Assembly: GCA_964388035.1 (NCBI GenBank)
Contig: CAYLZE010000055.1
Location: 11,070-31,908, forward strand
Source of the DNA: an uncultured archaeon
Lineage (GTDB): Archaea > Asgardarchaeota > Lokiarchaeia > Sigyniarchaeales > SOKP01
Direction: 5' to 3'
DNA length: 20,839 nt
Shown here: one piece after another, positions 1,249 through 11,829 of the stretch
Numbering within the stretch: position 1 is the first letter of the stretch
Layout: every line of letters starts with the position of its first letter
Position numbers and translations under genes: made by a program
Notes under the pieces: generated by a model
The model's database searches: none
Told to the model about the DNA's origin: nothing
What the model saw: the letters and a program-made list of their open reading frames with translations, nothing else

Positions 1249-2187
1249 TTAAAAATCTTTTAGCAAGGAAGCAAATAATCTCTCATATTCCACGGCCATG
1301 CAATGTATTCCCGCAGCCTTGGTGGATTTCTTAATCTCTTTTATGAAGGGCAGGAAAAATTTTATGTTAATTTCATCTATAGCGGCATATTTTGCGGCTT
1401 TGTCACCTTTATTTTCTTTTTCTGCAGATTTTAGGGCTTTTAAAAGGTCTTTCGGAACGGATACCCCCGGAATGTAGTTGTCAAAATACCAAGCGATACC
1501 ATAAGATTTCAAGGGAAAAATCCCTAATAAGACGGGAACATTATACTGCTCTAAATCTTTTAAAAAGTCCTTAGCTTCATCAAGATCAAAGGCCGTTTGA
1601 GTCTGAATAAAATCTACACCTTGTTCTACTTTCCTACCCACCTTAAAGATTTCGGGTTCTCTAGGATTACTATTAGGGTTCGCTACGCAACCAAAATTCA
1701 TTTCAATCTTTCCTCCTTCTATCTGATTCCCTTCATAATCCGTGCCCTCATCTATCATTTTAGATAACATTTCACAGAATTGAGTGCTATCGATATCATA
1801 TACAGGACGACCTTTCTTATGATCGCCAAGTGCTGTGTGATCGCCTGTAAGGGTTAATATATTTTTCAACCCTAACACTGCTCCGGAAAGCACATCCCCA
1901 AAAAGTGCAACTCGATTACGATCCCTTACAGTGACTTGCCATACCGCTTCTAATCCCACTTTTTCTTGCACAAAATAGCTGGGGGTTAAGGATGACATGT
2001 AAGCATCTCCTTGAGGACCATCCGTTACATTAGCAGCTACAATTTTACCCGTTTTTTTCATTTCTTCTGCGCCATGCAATATCTCGCTTAGATCGAGAAT
2101 TTTCTTGGGTTCAAGTTCTCCCGTTATGACAAATTTTCCTTTCTCAATTTCCTTGCATAAATTACTATATGCGGGTCGTTTTGCCAT
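1249..2187 (-). CDS. metF: Methylenetetrahydrofolate reductase, flavin subunit MetF
   Basis: GELEP, NVTDG, QVTVRDRNRVAL, LTLTGDH and GVDFIQTQ motifs; start codon directly abuts the metV stop. Confidence 0.92.
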   Translation of the reverse strand: MAKRPAYSNLCKEIEKGKFVITGELEPKKILDLSEILHGAEEMKKTGKIVAANVTDGPQGDAYMSSLTPSYFVQEKVGLEAVWQVTVRDRNRVALFGDVLSGAVLGLKNILTLTGDHTALGDHKKGRPVYDIDSTQFCEMLSKMIDEGTDYEGNQIEGGKIEMNFGCVANPNSNPREPEIFKVGRKVEQGVDFIQTQTAFDLDEAKDFLKDLEQYNVPVLLGIFPLKSYGIAWYFDNYIPGVSVPKDLLKALKSAEKENKGDKAAKYAAIDEINIKFFLPFIKEIKKSTKAAGIHCMAVEYERLFASLLKDF

Positions 2188-2883
2188 CTATTTTTTCTCC
2201 TCCTCTTTTTCTGGTTCGTTAGTATATTCCTTGTAAATTTCAATATAACCGGGGCTCGTGGAGAGCCGGTAATCTCGAGGCGGTCTATATTTCTTGAATA
2301 AATCCAATCGATTAAATTCCTTCAATCTTTTCCACATCTCGACCCAAGCACAAGGAATGGTATAACCTCCCACTTCACATTTCCCATCCACCATCCCACC
2401 GCACGGTCCATTGCTCAGATGCTTGGCGCAGCCAGCTCGGGGACACACGCCCCCAGTTTCTCCAAGAATGCAATCTCCACACGTTTCACAAAATTCAATA
2501 AAATTATTTTCACTATTATATTGGGCACCTCCAAAATGGCTATTTTGGGCGGGAAATGTTAAAATAGTGGGCAATACTTTATTCATCATCACGACGCCCA
2601 GACCACAAGCTAAAGATACCACGGCATCATAATCTTCGATCAAGGGACGAACGGTGGTAGCGGCAATGCGATCATCACATTGTCTTAAAACTGTAATTGC
2701 TTTCCAGATAAGATCCTTATTTTCTGTCCTTGCTTTTAATTCCAACAATTGTCCGAGAGTTTTCGCTTCATTCAAGGAGCGTGGAGGTTGACAGCACCCA
2801 TCGCATCCTGCTATCAAGATTTTATTATATGGTTTTATCAACTCATATATTTCATCAATTTCTTTTTGTTGGGTTATAATCAT
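2188..2883 (-). CDS. metV: MetV, Cys-rich (Zn/Fe-S) small subunit of methylene-THF reductase
   Basis: MIITQQK N-terminus, GCDGC, RQCD, ACGLG and CETCGDCILGETGGVCP...CAKHLSNGPCGG...CEV...CAW motifs; adjacent to metF. Confidence 0.9.
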   Translation of the reverse strand: MIITQQKEIDEIYELIKPYNKILIAGCDGCCQPPRSLNEAKTLGQLLELKARTENKDLIWKAITVLRQCDDRIAATTVRPLIEDYDAVVSLACGLGVVMMNKVLPTILTFPAQNSHFGGAQYNSENNFIEFCETCGDCILGETGGVCPRAGCAKHLSNGPCGGMVDGKCEVGGYTIPCAWVEMWKRLKEFNRLDLFKKYRPPRDYRLSTSPGYIEIYKEYTNEPEKEEEKK

Positions 2884-2970
2884 TTTTTTTATTCACATTT
2901 TTTTATATCTTTTTCAGTAAATTTTTTTGATTTCATGATTGTTATTGTACTATTTTAAAAAAATTGTAAG

Positions 2971-3855
2971 TTAAGTTGTTAATTTTTCAATTAACTTATC
3001 TGGTTTCACGCTTCTTTGTTTCAAATCTAGATCCTGTATTTCTACTCCAAGAGCAATAGCCATTATCTCGGGAAGATAAAGCACGGGAATGTCAAGCACC
3101 TTATTAGTTCTTCGAGAAAGAATCTTTTCTTTTCGATCATATTGGGTGATACAAGCCGGGCAAACAGCGATTAAAGCATCAACTTCCTCTCCCATATCTT
3201 TTAATTCGCACATTTTTTTCTCCACGAGTTCTTCTCCTATTTCTTCTTGCAATCGAGCACAATACCCGCAGCATTCGAGTTTGGTAGCAAAATCGACCGT
3301 TTTAGCCCCTAAAGTTCGAAGGATGAGATCAATCTTTTCGGGCTTTTCCGGATGATCGAATTTCATGATCTTACTCGGTCTAATCAGGTGACAACCATAA
3401 TGAACCGCAAGATTTAAATCATCTAAGGGTCTGACGACCATCTTCTTTATTTTTTCCAACCATTCGGGTTGAGTAAATATTTCCACGAAGTGATATACCT
3501 TTGTCTTTCCGCTGTAAGAATAATTAATTTTTTTCAGGATACCATTAATTTTCTTCAGATAATTCTTATCTTCTTCTAATAATACGCTTACCGTCTTTAA
3601 AGTTTCAAAACACCCGGAGCAAATGGTCAACACGTCTAATCCCATTTTTTCCGCTATAGACAGATTTCTCGCTCCTAATGTCATCCAAGTGTCAATATTT
3701 AAAGATTGTAAAGATACGGGTTCTGGACAACAACTCACGCCCTCCATTTCCTTCAGACCGATGCCTAAAATACTGGCCACGTCCCTGAAAGCCTTTTCTA
3801 AATGAGGAAGCTTCAAGGGGATGGTACAACCAAGAAATAGCGCAAAATCTTTCAT
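2971..3855 (-). CDS. hdrB: Heterodisulfide reductase subunit B (two CCG domains)
   Basis: FLGC...SCCPEP...ICSGC and HYGCHLIRP...ECCG...VCPAC motifs; GGAGGAGG SD-like sequence upstream; ATGA overlap with hdrC. Confidence 0.93.
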   Translation of the reverse strand: MKDFALFLGCTIPLKLPHLEKAFRDVASILGIGLKEMEGVSCCPEPVSLQSLNIDTWMTLGARNLSIAEKMGLDVLTICSGCFETLKTVSVLLEEDKNYLKKINGILKKINYSYSGKTKVYHFVEIFTQPEWLEKIKKMVVRPLDDLNLAVHYGCHLIRPSKIMKFDHPEKPEKIDLILRTLGAKTVDFATKLECCGYCARLQEEIGEELVEKKMCELKDMGEEVDALIAVCPACITQYDRKEKILSRRTNKVLDIPVLYLPEIMAIALGVEIQDLDLKQRSVKPDKLIEKLTT

Positions 3856-4388
3856 TTTTTGTCCTCCTCCAAATTTTTTACGAGATATCCTAATCCCGTT
3901 TCGTTAATTATAAATTGTATTTCACTCAAATTTGGTCCTTTTATCTCAGGAAGACCCATTTTCGTTCTTCTTCTATCTATTGTTTTTTTCAATCCTTCCG
4001 TATAAGGAACCACGAATCCATTTTGAAAGATAACTTCTACCGTGCTGGAATATTCTTTTGGAACCATTCCTTCCTTTGCAGCCATATTCCTCAATAATGC
4101 TAATATGAACGAGTAATCCACGTTTTTAGGACAGCGTTCCGTGCACCGATGACAAAGACTGCAGGTCCAGATCGCATTACTGCTAAGCACTTCTTCTTTA
4201 AGACCTAACAGGCAAGAAGCAACAACCCGGTGTGGTTGCATGTCCACGTATTCCGTGACGGTACAACCCGACGAACACACTCCACATTGAATACATTTCA
4301 AGAGCGATTTAGCTCCAATTTTTTCGCTAATTTCATAGCGAAAATTTAAATCTAATTCACCAGAATTTTTCTTTAACATTTCGGTCAT
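3852..4388 (-). CDS. hdrC: Heterodisulfide reductase subunit C (2x[4Fe-4S])
   Basis: CIQCGVCSSGC and IWTCSLCHRCTERCP motifs; RRRTKMGLP C-terminal motif; lies between hdrA and hdrB. Confidence 0.93.
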   Translation of the reverse strand: MTEMLKKNSGELDLNFRYEISEKIGAKSLLKCIQCGVCSSGCTVTEYVDMQPHRVVASCLLGLKEEVLSSNAIWTCSLCHRCTERCPKNVDYSFILALLRNMAAKEGMVPKEYSSTVEVIFQNGFVVPYTEGLKKTIDRRRTKMGLPEIKGPNLSEIQFIINETGLGYLVKNLEEDKK

Positions 4389-4389
4389 T

Positions 4390-7300
4390 TTAGGCCATCA
4401 CCTTTTCCATTTTTTTTTCCTTTTCTTTTTTTTCGATTTTATCTCCCGTTTTCTTTAAGGGACCAAGCTGCTTGATTTGCTTCACGAAATCCGTGACTGC
4501 TTCAGAGAATCGTTTTCCCTCACTGGCGGATATCCATTCTAGTCTAAGACGGTCTTTATTTATCCCCACTTTTTCAAGAATATCTTTCAGTTCATTATAA
4601 CGCTGTAGCATATCGTAATTTCCCTCTAAATAGTGGCAATCTCCAATATGACAACCTCCAATGAATACACCATCCGCCCCTTCTAAGAATGCTTGTAATA
4701 TGAACCTTTTTGGAATTCTACCCGTGCACATGACTCTTATCGGGCGAATATTGGTGGGGTATTGAAAACGACTCACACCGCAAGTGTCTGCTCCCGCATA
4801 GCTGCACCAATTGCATAAGAACGCCACGATGCGGGGACGTTCATCTATGAAATCTCCTCGAACGGCTTCCCGAATCATCGGATAAAGCTGTTCATCAGCA
4901 AAGTGGCTCATCGTAATTGCTCCTGCAGGGCATGCTGCTGCACAGTCTCCACAACCTTTACAGAGCAAGGGGTTTGATTGAGATACCAAGATTTCATTAT
5001 CAAAATTCACACCTATGGCTCCAAAATTACACACCTCTTCACATTTTTGACATCCTATGCATAATGCGGGATTCACAACCGAGACGAGGGGCTCATTTTC
5101 CACTTCTCCTGAAATGAGCGGGATGAGAGCATGAGCTGCTGCCCCTCTCCCTTGAGATATCGAATCAGCAATTCCTTTGGGGCCATGACAAGTACCCGCC
5201 AGATAGATTCCATCCGTCGCAAAATCTACGGGACGCAGTTTCACGTGCGCTTCCAAGAAAAAGCCCTTTTGATCCCGAGCACATTTGATCATCTCCCCTA
5301 ATTTTTCCGTATCATTAGGTATTAACGGCGTGGATAGTATTACCCGATCCGCATTAATAGTGAGATCAATCTGAGTTAAAATATCTTTAACTTCCACGTT
5401 AAGACGATTATTCGCAACCTCTACAGTTGGATAGTCATTAAATCGAATATAATTGACATTCTCTCGCGCTTTCCAATAATAGGGTTCTTCATCGGTACCC
5501 ACCCTTATATCTCGATACAATACGTAAATGTTGGATCTGGGATAATTTTCTTTTACATATAACGCGTGTCGGATTGATTCCGAACAACAGATTAGGGAAC
5601 AATAAGTTACTCCATTACCACCCTCTGGTTGCCGAGAGCCGACGCAATGGATGAATACTAATGTTTCCCCATCCTTTAACTCATTATTTCTCAATTTTTC
5701 GGATAATTCGAGTTGAGTCATCACTTTATCTTCCAATCCCTTCTCGCCGTAATGATACCATCCCTCAGGTTTATACTCATGGGCGCCCGTAGCGGTGATG
5801 ATTACTCCGACATTTAAACTTACTTCATCACCTTTTAAATTGTTATTGACTGATACTTTAAAGTCCCCGATGGATCCTTTCACGTCCTTTACTTCGGAAT
5901 TTAGATATGTAGTGATTCGTTTTTCATCATGGAATTCTTTTATTTTTTTATTTAAAAAGTCAGCAGAGTCGATTCTCTCAAAATTAATCTTGTAAATGAG
6001 GTTTAATTGTCCTCCCAATTTATCTGTTTTTTCAACGAGGTGAACCTTGAATCCCTTTTTAGCAATTTCTAGGGCTGCACTAATTCCTGCGATTCCTCCT
6101 CCCACGACTAGAGCTTCGGGTACCACGCTTCCTTTAATTTTATATTCCGGCTTCAAAACTTGCGCTCGTGCAACACCCATGCGAATTAAATCCTTTGCCT
6201 TATCCGTGGCTTTTTCCGGTTCTTTCATGTGTACCCAAGAATCTAATTCCCGAATACTCACGAAGTTAAACAAGTATTCATTTAACCCTGCTTCCCGAAT
6301 AGTATGTTGAAATAATGGTTCATGAGTTCGAGGCGTGCAAGCAGCTACAACAACACGGTTTAAATTTAATTCTTCAATCTTTTCTTTTATAATATCTTGA
6401 GTTAGACTTGAACAGCTATACTTATTATGCATGGCAAATACTACTCCCGGAAGAGTCTTTGAATATTCCACAATTTCTGGAATGTTCATGTATCCCCCTA
6501 TATTAACTCCACACTCACATACGAACACTCCAATACGTGATTCATCATATTTAGTAATTGGTTTCAGAGCAGGGAGCTCTACCTTGGTTTCTTCCTTACT
6601 TAAGGGGGTAGCATGTAATGCAGCTAATGCAGCCGCCCCTCCTGCTTTTGCCACGGAATTTGCGATGTCATCGGGAGATTGACATGAACCTGTTACATAG
6701 ATGCCTTCTTTAGTAGAATGCGTGTCTTCAGTAGAATTTGTAGTTTTATAAAAACCTAATTCATTCTTTTCAATCCCTAAGATCTTAGCCAGCTCATCCG
6801 AGTCTGTTCTAGGAATAACCGCATTGGCCAATACCACCAAATCAAATCTATTAGTTTCCACTTCTCCCGTATCTAAATTTGCATGTTTAACCAATAATTC
6901 ATGTGTTTCAGGATCTTCCCGAACATCTCCCGGTATCCCATGGTAATATTTTAGTTTATACTCCTCTTTAGCACGCTCTATAAATTCCTCTTGATTCTTA
7001 CCAATAACTCTGGTATCATTATAAAAAATAGTTACTCGCGTATCTGGAGCGTGTTCTCTCGTAACTACCCCTTCTTTTGCCATGTACATGCAGCAAAACT
7101 TCGAACAATACGCACATAAGTCTTCATTTCTGGAACCAACGCAAGCTACAAAAGCAATCTCGTGGGCGTGTTCTCCATCAGAAGGCTTCAATAGTTGCCC
7201 TTCCGTAGGACCTGAAGCACTAAGCAACCTTTCATATTGCATGGCCGTGATCACATTGGGATACTCTCCGTAATGATATCGAGTAAGAATACTTGGATCC

Positions 7301-7902
7301 AAGAGATCATAGCCCGTAGCAACGATGATGGAGGCCACATCGTACTCAGCAATTTCATCTTTCATGTCAAAATTTATTGCTCCAGCTTCACATTCCTTCA
7401 AGCATAATTTACAGGCACCCTTCGTCAGGAATAAACAGCGATCTTTATCAATCGTTGCTTTTCTCGGAACCGCTTGCGGAAAGGGAATGTAAATGGCTGT
7501 CCTATTTCCCATCCCTTCTTCAAATTCATTCGGGATTTTTTTCATGGGACACTTCTCGGAGCACGCCCCGCATCCGGTACATTTTTCCGTGTCTACAAAT
7601 CGTGATTTTTTCAAAACTTTCACGTGAAAATCTCCCGCTTTTCCTGAAACTTCTTGTACTTCGGAATATGTTAATAATTCGATTCGTGGATGTCGAGCCA
7701 CCTCTACCATTTTAGGCGCCAGAATGCAAATACTACAATCCAGGGTTGGAAATGTTTTATCTAATTGAGCCATGCGCCCTCCAACCGAGGGAGTTTTTTC
7801 CACTAAAATGACGCGATATCCTTGGTCCCCTAAGGTCAGTGCGGATTCAATCCCTGAGATGCCACCGCCGATCACCATAATATTACTATTTTGCATAATC
7901 AT
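4390..7902 (-). CDS. hdrA: Tandem HdrA-HdrA-MvhD fusion flavoprotein (1170 aa)
   Basis: Two FAD Rossmann motifs (VIGGGISG; VVGGGIAG), DKTFPTLDCSIC, two CVGSR...CSxxCC clusters, ferredoxin motifs, and a C-terminal MvhD [2Fe-2S] domain (AFLCNWCSYAGAD, RVMCTGR, GGCHIGDCHY, LEWISASEG). Confidence 0.93.
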   Translation of the reverse strand: MIMQNSNIMVIGGGISGIESALTLGDQGYRVILVEKTPSVGGRMAQLDKTFPTLDCSICILAPKMVEVARHPRIELLTYSEVQEVSGKAGDFHVKVLKKSRFVDTEKCTGCGACSEKCPMKKIPNEFEEGMGNRTAIYIPFPQAVPRKATIDKDRCLFLTKGACKLCLKECEAGAINFDMKDEIAEYDVASIIVATGYDLLDPSILTRYHYGEYPNVITAMQYERLLSASGPTEGQLLKPSDGEHAHEIAFVACVGSRNEDLCAYCSKFCCMYMAKEGVVTREHAPDTRVTIFYNDTRVIGKNQEEFIERAKEEYKLKYYHGIPGDVREDPETHELLVKHANLDTGEVETNRFDLVVLANAVIPRTDSDELAKILGIEKNELGFYKTTNSTEDTHSTKEGIYVTGSCQSPDDIANSVAKAGGAAALAALHATPLSKEETKVELPALKPITKYDESRIGVFVCECGVNIGGYMNIPEIVEYSKTLPGVVFAMHNKYSCSSLTQDIIKEKIEELNLNRVVVAACTPRTHEPLFQHTIREAGLNEYLFNFVSIRELDSWVHMKEPEKATDKAKDLIRMGVARAQVLKPEYKIKGSVVPEALVVGGGIAGISAALEIAKKGFKVHLVEKTDKLGGQLNLIYKINFERIDSADFLNKKIKEFHDEKRITTYLNSEVKDVKGSIGDFKVSVNNNLKGDEVSLNVGVIITATGAHEYKPEGWYHYGEKGLEDKVMTQLELSEKLRNNELKDGETLVFIHCVGSRQPEGGNGVTYCSLICCSESIRHALYVKENYPRSNIYVLYRDIRVGTDEEPYYWKARENVNYIRFNDYPTVEVANNRLNVEVKDILTQIDLTINADRVILSTPLIPNDTEKLGEMIKCARDQKGFFLEAHVKLRPVDFATDGIYLAGTCHGPKGIADSISQGRGAAAHALIPLISGEVENEPLVSVVNPALCIGCQKCEEVCNFGAIGVNFDNEILVSQSNPLLCKGCGDCAAACPAGAITMSHFADEQLYPMIREAVRGDFIDERPRIVAFLCNWCSYAGADTCGVSRFQYPTNIRPIRVMCTGRIPKRFILQAFLEGADGVFIGGCHIGDCHYLEGNYDMLQRYNELKDILEKVGINKDRLRLEWISASEGKRFSEAVTDFVKQIKQLGPLKKTGDKIEKKEKEKKMEKVMA

Positions 7903-8540: not shown

Positions 8541-10118
8541 GTGAAAAAAAAAATGAATGGTAAGTATATAATTGCCCACGACCTTGGAACCACGGGCAAT
8601 AAAGCCGCAATCTTTGATTCCAAGCTGACATTAATTGCGGATGAGATGATAAAATATCCTCTTATCTATCCCAAACCTGGATGGGCAGAACAAAACGCCA
8701 TGGATTATTGGAATTCAGTCGTGAACACGACAAAAACCCTCATGCAAGCAAATAAAATCAATTCGGAGGACGTTCTTGCCCTGGTTTTTGATTGCCAAAT
8801 GAATTGTACCGTTCCCATCGATCAGGACGGAAATCCCTTAATGAATTGTATCAACTGGCTCGATACCAGAGCCGCTCAAACAACTCATAAATTCCGAAAA
8901 GGACCCATAAAAATCTCAGGATTTGGATTGAAAAATTTATTGATGTTTATTAAAATTACCGGAGGCGCTCCAGGAACGAATGGGAAGGATCCTATTGCCC
9001 ATATATTATGGATCAAAGACAATGAACCTGCAATCTATGACAAGACCTTCAAGTTTCTCAGTGTAAAGGACTTTGTAATTTTTAAATGTACTGAAAAAGC
9101 GGTTACTTCACGGGACTTGGGCAATACGTCGTGGTTGATGGATTCCAATCCGGGACAATTTGTCTGGTCGCCAAAAATTCTTGAAAAATTAAAAATAGAT
9201 AATGAAAAATTACCGGTAATTAAAAAATCCGTTGAAATTGCAGGAACCCTAACCGAAAAAGCAGCTAAAGAATTGGGATTAAAAACAGGAATCCCCGTGA
9301 TAGTAGGGTCGGGAGATCTGACTTCCGCTGCAATAGGTTCGGGAGCAATAAAGGATAATGAATTAATCGTTAATATAGGAACTTCCGACATGGTCGCCGC
9401 CCATACTCCTGATAGGATAAAAGATTTAATACATTACACGGGGTCCATTTGTTCTGCCCAAGATAAATATCTCTGCATTTCAAAGCAAGAAACGGGAGGG
9501 GCTTGTTTAGACTGGATTGTAGAACAATTATTTCCTTCTGAAAGGAAGAATTCTAGAGAAAAATTGGATGAAATTTATGAAGAAATTAATACAATGGTGG
9601 AAGGAGCTGAAGCGGGATCAAAAAACATGATCTTCACTCCTTGGCTGTTTGGAGAAAGAAGTCCCCTAAATGATTCGAGCGTGCGCGGTGGATTATATAA
9701 TCTGAGTCTTGATCAAAAAAGAGAAGATCTCCTTCGAGCCGTCTATGAAGGAGTTGCGTTTAATATTAAGTGGGCTCTACAGGTTGTAGAGAAATTAGTA
9801 GGGAAGGGAGAATCCATTAACTTTATTGGAGGTGGTGCGAAATCCCGGATTTGGGCCCAAATTCTGGCAGACGTGTTGGAGAGAAAAATTAACCGCATCT
9901 CAGAACCTAATTTAGCCGCAGTCAAAGGATCTGCCATCGTGGCTTTAGTAGGATTAGGTATTTTAAAAAGCTTTGAAGAAGCTATACCATTAATCAAGAT
10001 TGATGAATCTCTTACTCCTAATATTCAGAATAAACCAATTTATGACAAGCTATTTAAAGAATATCTCGCGACCTATAAAAGAAATAAAAAAATGTTCAAA
10101 ATTTTAAATCCTGAATAG
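8541..10118 (+). CDS. FGGY-family carbohydrate kinase (xylulokinase-like); ATG 8553 may be the true start
   Basis: AHDLGTTGNK, YPKPGWAEQ, WLDTRA, GSGD, FTPWLFGERSP, RAVYEGVAF, GGGAKSRIWAQILADVL motifs. Confidence 0.92.
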   Translation: MKKKMNGKYIIAHDLGTTGNKAAIFDSKLTLIADEMIKYPLIYPKPGWAEQNAMDYWNSVVNTTKTLMQANKINSEDVLALVFDCQMNCTVPIDQDGNPLMNCINWLDTRAAQTTHKFRKGPIKISGFGLKNLLMFIKITGGAPGTNGKDPIAHILWIKDNEPAIYDKTFKFLSVKDFVIFKCTEKAVTSRDLGNTSWLMDSNPGQFVWSPKILEKLKIDNEKLPVIKKSVEIAGTLTEKAAKELGLKTGIPVIVGSGDLTSAAIGSGAIKDNELIVNIGTSDMVAAHTPDRIKDLIHYTGSICSAQDKYLCISKQETGGACLDWIVEQLFPSERKNSREKLDEIYEEINTMVEGAEAGSKNMIFTPWLFGERSPLNDSSVRGGLYNLSLDQKREDLLRAVYEGVAFNIKWALQVVEKLVGKGESINFIGGGAKSRIWAQILADVLERKINRISEPNLAAVKGSAIVALVGLGILKSFEEAIPLIKIDESLTPNIQNKPIYDKLFKEYLATYKRNKKMFKILNPE

Positions 10119-10348: not shown

Positions 10349-10408
10349 GAATTTTAACAATTTAAAAAAAGAAAAAATAAAATAATAGAATATAATTGGA
10401 AGTTAACA

Positions 10409-11829
10409 ATGGTCGAAGAAAAACAGATTACCGAAAAAAAATATTCAAACTGGACCCATCTATCGTTTAATTTGATGATGTTCATGCTTCCCGCCACGTA
10501 AGGCAATATGCATTCTGCTTATTGCCCGTGATTGGCATATTCGGGACGCATTTCTTCTGGTACTACGAGACGGAAGTACTACTTCCGGTAATTTTCGTAG
10601 GAATTGCGAACGTTATTTATCTTTTATGGGACGCTTTTAATGATCCCCTTATCGGATATCTATCAGATAGATCGCACAATCGGTTATCGAAGAAATATGG
10701 AAGGCGATTCCCCTATATCGTCATAATGGGGGTGCCCACCATGCTTTCCATGATGCTTTTATTCATTCCCCCAATAACTAACGCTCAAATTAACCCTATC
10801 CCTGTTTTCTTATGGGCTGTTGCCATGTTAATCATTCATGAGACGGGATATACTACGGTAAGTTTAACAAGAGCGTTATATCCGGAGAAATTTCGATCTG
10901 ATTCAGAACGGCGGAAGAATGCGGGGATTGGCATGGTAATTTACAATATCGGCATGTTATGCGGTCTCGTGATTCCCATGATATTTGTCACTACGGGAGA
11001 TATCAACTCCTATTTTCTTGGTGCCATAATTTTAACGATTCCTTGTTTTATTACCTTTTTTCTGGGGATACCGGGAGTCAGAGAAGATAAAGAAATGATA
11101 GAACGTGATATCAACGAGGAGCGAGAGCCTTTCTTTAAAACCATGATTACAGTCTTAAAGAAGAAGAATTTTCGCGCCGTTATTGTCGTAATGATGTCTG
11201 TCCAGATGATTGGTGCCTGCATAATGGGTAGTGTTTATTATTACGTGTACTACATCCTATTGGAGCCCGCAGATTCGTCAGCGGACATATTATTCATGCT
11301 AGCTTGGTTCATTGCGGGAGTTGTATCTATACCTTTTTGGATGTTCATGGGTAAAAAAATCGGAAATCGAAAGCTGCAGATTTTAGCCTTAATCATGTAT
11401 AGTATCGCTATAATGCCCTTTCTTTTTATTCGAAGTCTCATTGGTGCGATTCTTGCAGCACTCGTGCTTGGGTTCATGATGGGAGCTAGTACATTCATCA
11501 GATATCCGCTATTTTCAGATTTAATAGATGAAGCCACCATAATGGATGGAAAACGCCAAGAAGGTATCTATCAAGGAGTGTTAGCATTTTTTGATCGATT
11601 CGGGATCCTCATACAGCCTATTATTTTTACCATCGTTCATCTCCTGACACGGTTTGATGCGACCCAAGCGGTTCAAACTCCCTTAGCTCAACAAGGAATA
11701 TTAGCAGCATTTACTTGGGTTCCAGCAAGCATCGCAATCATCGCTTGCCTTATCTTTTATAAATACTACGACTTGACGATAACACGAACTGAAGAAAATA
11801 AAATAAAACTGCATGAATTGAATTTATAA
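10409..11829 (+). CDS. GPH (MelB-like) MFS sugar transporter, predicted spliced: join(10409..10500,10533..11829), 462 aa
   Basis: WDAFNDPLIGYLSDR...YGRRFP, DLIDE...GKRQEGIY and YDLT motifs. Exon 1 reads MVEEKQITEKKYSNWTHLSFNLMMFMLPAT, and splicing continues YGIFGTHFFWYYETEV, giving a complete first TM helix. The track's TTG-10522 ORF lacks this N-terminus. Confidence 0.85.
10501..10532 (+). other. Candidate 32-nt bulge-helix-bulge (tRNA-type) intron in a protein-coding gene
   Basis: Central helix CACG(10495-98)/CGUG(10527-30); 3-nt bulges UAA(10499-501) and AUU(10531-33); inner stem GGCAAUA(10502-08)/UAUUGCC(10520-26). Cutting after the second nucleotide of each bulge removes the in-frame TAA, creates TAT and restores the frame. 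Confidence 0.82.

What the first reader, a model, noticed from the sequence alone, without database searches (positions are those of the whole stretch)
10409..10551. Splicing-gated expression: the unspliced mRNA encodes only a 30-aa peptide, and the exons supply an outer helix
Seen: the intron length is not a multiple of 3, and its first base completes a TAA, so unspliced RNA yields only MVEEK...MLPAT. The coding exons also pair: UCCCG(10489-93)/CGGGA(10542-46) and AUGC(10484-87)/GCAU(10548-51), which would clamp the BHB. Only one pair (C10494-G10534) directly closes the outer bulge, and an alternative register GCCA(10493-96)/UGGC(10533-36) would disrupt the BHB. Inference: splicing efficiency could be an on/off control for sugar uptake, conceptually like non-spliceosomal HAC1/XBP1 splicing. 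The same logic predicts that other apparently frameshifted genes in this genome hide BHB introns.
Basis: inference. Interest (0 to 1): 0.7.

Follow-up and report, generated by a model that had tools for sequence, protein, structure and literature searches.

The report
tRNA-type mini-intron in Asgard transporter gene
A transporter gene of an Asgard archaeon is broken by a 32-base insert shaped exactly like a tRNA intron, one of at least 13 such inserts in this genome's protein genes; it is very probably spliced out routinely rather than acting as a sugar-uptake switch, and introns of this kind are confirmed in print for the coding region of only one archaeal gene.

Summary
The sequence facts are right. 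A GPH-like MFS transporter gene of a Promethearchaeota (Loki) MAG carries a 32-nt insert (10501-10532) with canonical bulge-helix-bulge (BHB) geometry. Cutting where EndA cuts restores a 462-aa protein with the Tyr-Gly of its intron-less orthologues; neighbouring registers give Ile, Phe or stop. The insert is also in another sample's assembly. The scan has noted this class before, here and in other Loki genomes. The regulatory reading is not supported: ORF disruption and an A at intron +1 (which makes the TAA) are class features, housekeeping genes have them, the intron occurs in no orthologue examined, and there is no dedicated sensor nuclease as for HAC1/XBP1. The exon helix is real but mostly predates the intron and is not conserved; the 'disrupting' register is the hairpin of the spliced mRNA and may hold the cut ends for RtcB. 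No RNA data: splicing is inferred.

The parts
10409..10500 (+). Exon 1 of the GPH-like MFS transporter (30 codons plus TA of the Tyr31 codon)
   Evidence: Aligns without gaps to the N-termini of 462-aa orthologues; SD-like GGAAGT at 10398-10403
10501..10532 (+). 32-nt BHB intron (1 bulge base + 25-nt hairpin + 4-nt helix strand + 2 bulge bases)
   Evidence: Only this register gives the conserved Tyr (35 Y, 2 W in 37 orthologues); present unchanged in an independent Logan contig; no second copy in the genome
10533..11829 (+). Exon 2 of the transporter, intact to the stop codon
   Evidence: Pfam MFS_2 E 4e-52; 13 of 15 codon differences in related strains are synonymous
10495..10498 (+). Exon strand of the 4-bp central helix (pairs with 10527-10530)
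   Evidence: Four Watson-Crick pairs
10499..10501 (+). 5' bulge UAA; cut after its second base; also the stop codon of the unspliced RNA
10502..10526 (+). Intron hairpin (7-bp stem 10502-08/10520-26, -10.9 kcal/mol); holds the in-frame TTG 10522
10527..10533 (+). Intron strand of the central helix (10527-30, containing GTG 10528) and 3' bulge AUU (10531-33; cut after 10532); second exon-1-frame stop TGA at 10529-31
10484..10551 (+). Exon-exon pairing: C10494-G10534; 10489-93/10542-46; 10484-87/10548-51; alternative register 10493-96/10533-36, which is the top stem of the spliced-mRNA hairpin
   Evidence: Pair probabilities 0.9-1.0 in short windows, 0.5-0.65 in a 320-nt window; spliced junction hairpin -13.4 kcal/mol, lowest 4% of the gene
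8541..10118 (+). Upstream FGGY carbohydrate kinase (best XylB, below cut-off), syntenic in the closest orthologue locus

Best explanation
The 32 nt are a recently gained tRNA-type intron in an mRNA. The pre-mRNA folds into a BHB (predicted; near-isoenergetic with the competing register). The genome's two-subunit splicing endonuclease cuts after A10500 and after T10532 (inferred from the known BHB rule), the exons stay paired through the helix 10484-96/10533-51, RtcB joins them (inferred), and the 462-aa transporter is made (shown at sequence level by orthologues). It is one member of a genome-wide class of about 30-nt mRNA introns handled by the housekeeping tRNA-splicing machinery. Splicing is obligatory for expression but most likely constitutive, with the stop codon acting at most as a generic fail-safe; the intron persisted because it landed where a BHB can form, in the loop of a pre-existing exon hairpin.
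For: Register-exact restoration of length and of Tyr31; chance about 1e-4 per position. Insert real in DNA. Exon 2 under purifying selection in near strains. EndA alpha with Tyr/His/Lys, a His-less beta paralogue, and RtcB present. Motif-free census: insert sizes peak at 29-32 nt; of 15 distinct ORF-breaking junctions of 29-32 nt, 13 have a full 4-bp helix plus at least 3 intron-stem pairs on the sense strand against 1 in antisense geometry, and ordinary in-frame indels lack it. Same-site introns with diverged, still-pairing stems: NadE in four genera with GGTG/CACT vs GGCG/CGCT, TFE in two genomes. The only TFE gene is interrupted. tRNA introns of this genome have the same sizes.
Against: No RNA was available, so neither this intron nor any of the class is shown spliced here. 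The BHB is a minority conformer in ViennaRNA (central helix 0.32 at 37 C, 0.45 at 20 C), and only one pair closes the outer bulge. This particular intron has no orthologous copy, so no covariation can be shown for it. The genome has many MFS paralogues, so loss of this copy could be tolerated.
Confidence: 0.8

Rival explanations
1. One reading: the intron is spliced, and its splicing efficiency is a regulated switch for substrate uptake (BHB versus alternative register), analogous to HAC1/XBP1.
For: The two conformers differ by 0.3 kcal/mol (-25.9 vs -25.6); BHB share rises from 0.28 at 45 C to 0.59 at 5 C; both synonymous differences from the closest intron-less orthologue inside the helix add a pair; a negative-regulator role was proposed for the cbf5 intron (PMC2738675), and EndA knock-down lowers an intron-bearing Haloferax mRNA (PMC7714728).
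Against: Intron absent from every orthologue examined, including the syntenic one; five other census introns have an equally weak or weaker predicted central helix; the alternative register follows from Ala-Thr/Tyr-Gly codons and is complete in four intron-less orthologues; the temperature shift is only about twofold over 40 C; the same enzyme must serve tRNAs, rRNA and TFE, so it cannot be switched off.
Confidence: 0.09
2. The insert is an unspliced hairpin that inactivated one of many MFS paralogues (recent pseudogene); the BHB shape is chance or a relic.
For: Single-lineage insert; at least 11 close paralogues in the genome; BHB is not the predicted minimum-energy fold; the strains with synonymous differences are not covered across the insert.
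Against: Chance of this BHB at a homology-fixed register about 2e-4; no other lesion in 1.4 kb; no target-site duplication or second copy; same anatomy as inserts in indispensable genes.
Confidence: 0.07
3. No splicing is needed: ribosomes reinitiate at TTG 10522 or GTG 10528, or hop over the stop and hairpin as in T4 gene 60.
For: Both codons are in frame with exon 2; a stop followed by a hairpin resembles the gene 60 layout (own knowledge).
Against: Both starts are buried in the stem or central helix and have no SD-like element; the product would lose 30 residues conserved in all orthologues; no landing codon matching ACG, and a hop would give Ile instead of the conserved Tyr.
Confidence: 0.04

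Closest known systems
cbf5 pre-mRNA BHB intron of Desulfurococcales/Sulfolobales (Watanabe 2002; Yokobori 2009, PMC2738675)
   Same: Short (16-44 nt there, 32 here) intron inside a CDS, BHB boundaries, hetero-oligomeric EndA, often ORF-breaking; a negative-regulator role was already proposed there.
   Different: cbf5 is one ancient, conserved intron in one gene; here a lineage-specific intron in a transporter, one of at least 13 in unrelated genes of an Asgard genome; splicing not yet shown.
HVO_1309 5'-UTR BHB intron of Haloferax volcanii (PMC7714728)
   Same: mRNA substrate of EndA; removal appears needed for efficient expression.
   Different: Lies in the UTR, does not break the ORF; conserved in haloarchaea; experimentally shown.
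Non-canonical tRNA introns of Asgard archaea (bioRxiv 10.64898/2026.10.13.758758; PMC11291895)
   Same: Repeated independent gains at BHB-forming sites, two-subunit EndA, unknown source; same size range in this genome.
   Different: Those studies cover tRNA genes only ('mRNA' does not occur in the preprint); this intron has no tRNA-intron look-alike in the genome.
HAC1/XBP1 non-spliceosomal splicing
   Same: Protein-only cut and tRNA-ligase join of an mRNA, with a frame change (PMC4090602).
   Different: There a dedicated stress-activated nuclease (Ire1) cuts two stem-loops of one conserved regulator (own knowledge); here the motif is that of the housekeeping EndA, the host is not a regulator and the intron is not conserved.

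Membership tests
Archaeal BHB (EndA/RtcB) intron | 4-bp central helix flanked by two 3-nt bulges on opposite strands | tested here: met
   CACG/CGUG, bulges UAA and AUU; definition PMC4090602
Archaeal BHB (EndA/RtcB) intron | Cuts after the second base of each bulge restore the mature sequence | tested here: met
   462 aa, Tyr-Gly as in orthologues; other registers give Ile, Phe or stop
Archaeal BHB (EndA/RtcB) intron | Flanking helices: intron side (h') and exon side (h) | tested here: inconclusive
   h' is 7 bp; h is one stacked pair plus a displaced helix. Relaxed HBh' sites are known for two-subunit enzymes and 6 of 17 census introns have no outer pair
Archaeal BHB (EndA/RtcB) intron | EndA with catalytic triad and RtcB ligase in the genome | tested here: met
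Archaeal BHB (EndA/RtcB) intron | Intron-less orthologues collinear across the site | tested here: met
Archaeal BHB (EndA/RtcB) intron | Spliced RNA or circular intron observed | not testable with these tools
   no RNA holder listed
HAC1/XBP1-type regulated splicing | Intron and its exon structure conserved across orthologues | tested here: not met
   no orthologue has the intron; exon helix 2-6 of 8 pairs in 13 orthologues
HAC1/XBP1-type regulated splicing | Dedicated signal-activated nuclease and condition-dependent splicing | not testable with these tools
   motif is that of the housekeeping EndA; no expression data
GPH:cation symporter (TIGR00792) | Score above the curated cut-off | tested here: not met
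   126.9 bits vs 231.35 for the orthologue P0002; Pfam MFS_2 passes: GPH-like MFS, substrate unknown

The most novel reading that the evidence does not exclude
Lokiarchaeia carry a genome-wide, still-accumulating set of about 30-nt mRNA introns removed by EndA/RtcB, in housekeeping and accessory genes alike, favouring exon hairpins and early stops, so that tRNA-type splicing is a general step of mRNA maturation in an Asgard lineage; in weakly folding cases such as this one it may also tune expression (that last clause alone about 0.1).
Probability: 0.7. Interest if true: 0.85.

Novelty: new variant of a known kind. Interest (0 to 1): 0.68.

Why it matters
Papers read here confirm BHB introns inside an archaeal coding sequence only for cbf5, and my literature searches found no report for Asgard mRNAs. 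Many such introns in the closest prokaryotic relatives of eukaryotes would mean that routine mRNA splicing, and the conflict between coupled translation and splicing, exists without a spliceosome or nucleus. It also changes annotation: this gene is called as a 367-aa fragment, and TFE, NadE, E2 and actin look broken. This intron is useful as a young gain with a syntenic empty site, which makes the route of intron arrival testable. The proposed sugar-uptake switch adds little on present evidence.

Tried and rejected
No RNA holder listed for the locus; DNA contigs of three 2025 runs do not cover the insert. A metagenome pattern scan for the same exon flanks gave seven hits, all an unrelated protein with a 13-residue spacer. 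No orthologue with the intron among 61 relatives or 400 phylum genomes; N-truncated homologues were a contig end or start mis-calls. No donor or second copy of the intron in the genome, tRNA introns included. A homology-backed motif scan gave 15 sense against 5 mirror hits for broken ORFs, several being junk, and 4 against 7 for stop-free inserts. My idea that every 3n intron carries a stop (9 of 9) is weakened by the stop-free 33-nt actin insert and by detection bias. No Rfam match; no PDB sequence match; PMC3064391 not held. Assembly artefact rejected; ribosomal hop rejected. One script timed out and two calls were slips (25, 81).

Full report
Setting. The window is G000:C55:11070-31908 of a 5.5-Mb MAG. 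Its homologues are named Promethearchaeota/Lokiarchaeota MFS transporters and the DNA occurs in salt-marsh metagenomes. The finding lies at the start of an MFS_2 gene downstream of an FGGY kinase.

Observation. ATG 10409 opens 30 codons and meets TAA at 10499-10501; the rest of the protein is in another frame. The distance from ATG to the stop at 11829 exceeds a 462-codon gene by 32 nt. A canonical BHB spans the break: CACG(10495-98)/CGUG(10527-30), bulges UAA and AUU, a 7-bp intron stem, one outer pair. Cutting after the second base of each bulge removes 10501-10532 and gives 462 residues aligned without gaps to orthologues. The register matters: neighbours give Ile, Phe or a stop, while 35 of 37 orthologues have Tyr and two Trp. 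Of 329 frame-restoring deletions only two score within 6 units of the best, and the best is the BHB cut; the genome background for such a BHB at this length is 1e-4. A Logan contig from another run spans the insert with no difference, so it is not an assembly slip; that run may belong to the same 2019 campaign. Near strains differ in exon 2 at 15 codons, 13 synonymously, although they are not covered across the insert.

Machinery. The genome encodes two EndA paralogues, one with the Tyr/His/Lys triad and one lacking the His, and RtcB: the two-subunit type, described as accepting relaxed sites (PMC4090602) and common in Asgard genomes.

A descriptor alone is swamped by noise. I therefore ran a motif-free census against this genome's paralogues, 1.0 Mb of a same-genus genome and 0.4 Mb of a same-family genome. 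Break sizes peak at 0 (in-frame stops) and at 29-32 nt. Of 15 distinct ORF-breaking junctions of 29-32 nt, 13 have a complete central helix and at least three intron-stem pairs at a best-scoring register, against one in antisense geometry; ordinary in-frame indels do not. With the list for this genome is 13 inserts of 29-37 nt (C1, C10, C23, C32, C38, C45, C50, C55, C65, C66, C109, C149, C199; three have only 3 of 4 central pairs, and in C66 the alignment prefers 35 nt to the 32-nt BHB), plus two in the actin C-terminus. This is a lower bound. The NadE intron sits at the same site in four genera, with GGTG/CACT replaced by GGCG/CGCT in one, and the TFE intron is shared with the same-genus genome with a diverged stem; TFE is single-copy here. 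Earlier AI notes report the same class in this and other Loki genomes; the TFE and actin leads came from them and were checked, the E2 and Roadblock cases I had found first.

The exon helix. It is real (pair probabilities 0.9-1.0 locally, lower in a longer window) and the spliced junction lies in a hairpin in the lowest 4% of energies along the gene. But the syntenic intron-less orthologue already has 6 of the 8 pairs and the whole alternative register, and twelve others keep 2-5 of 8: it is a local property of this lineage, largely older than the intron, not a conserved element. The two synonymous changes that complete it here are too few to call selection. Six of 17 census introns have no outer pair at all, so a clamp is not required, though 9 of 17 junctions lie in the lowest tenth of local folding energy. 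The register GCCA/UGGC is slightly favoured over the BHB (-25.9 vs -25.6 kcal/mol), but it is also the top stem of the spliced RNA, with the junction at the edge of its 4-nt loop. I infer that it forms after cleavage and holds the ends for RtcB, as the anticodon arm does in tRNA; before cleavage it may slow splicing.

Regulation. That unspliced RNA is useless is true but generic: 14 of 17 introns begin with A, so an exon ending in TA yields TAA automatically; 16 of 17 have an in-frame stop inside (10-11 expected), a tendency weakened by the actin pair and by detection bias. Housekeeping hosts argue for routine splicing by an enzyme that cannot be shut off. The intron is confined to this lineage, unlike HAC1/XBP1. 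The conformer ratio moves only about twofold between 5 and 45 C, and five other introns fold as weakly. The transporter is GPH-like but below cut-off, and only the closest orthologue shares the kinase neighbour, so 'sugar uptake' is a guess. A regulatory role for an archaeal mRNA intron was already proposed for cbf5. I give the switch about 0.09.

Verdict. A young BHB intron in a transporter mRNA, member of a genome-wide Asgard class: it works like the cbf5 intron and meets every BHB criterion testable from DNA except a strong stacked outer helix; splicing itself is unobserved. New variant of a known kind; interest 0.68, carried by the class and not by the proposed switch.

Noticed in passing
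G000 C45:19136 (L198), L194, L195, L196: 30-nt BHB intron at one site of NadE in four genera, with a compensatory change in the central helix; most relatives lack it.
   Followed up: yes
G000 C23:37074 (L197), L193: The only TFE gene carries a 30-nt BHB insert with an in-frame TGA, shared with the same-genus genome.
   Followed up: yes
G000 C5:43891-43979 (L200): Actin C-terminus with two BHB inserts (33 nt, stop-free; 31 nt) around a 25-nt exon.
   Followed up: partly
G000 C149 minus 5467 and L095: Orthologous 30-nt intron shared by G000 and G001 with diverged stems.
   Followed up: partly
G000 C199:1791 and G024 C6 (L102-L121): CO dehydrogenase/acetyl-CoA synthase alpha-like genes carry BHB introns at different sites in two genomes; G024 has 4-5 introns in 0.4 Mb, G001 one in 1.0 Mb, so density differs between lineages.
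   Followed up: partly
G000 C4 plus 56312, C5 minus 84669: Two more 30-31-nt hairpin inserts with weaker BHB or alignment support.
   Followed up: no
genome-wide: About 70 junctions are single in-frame stops in otherwise collinear genes, many in Hdr/Mvh-like proteins; selenocysteine, pyrrolysine or pseudogenes not separated.
   Followed up: no
window 1249-7902, minus strand: hdrA-mvhD, hdrC, hdrB, metV, metF-like run of tightly coupled ORFs (also noted).
   Followed up: no
G000 C191, C200: Contigs of 60-69% GC in a 34% GC bin, probably contamination; none of the listed introns is on them.
   Followed up: no
L128: An orthologue of this transporter (57% identity) lies in a contig titled Anaerolineaceae: transfer or mis-binning.
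   Followed up: no
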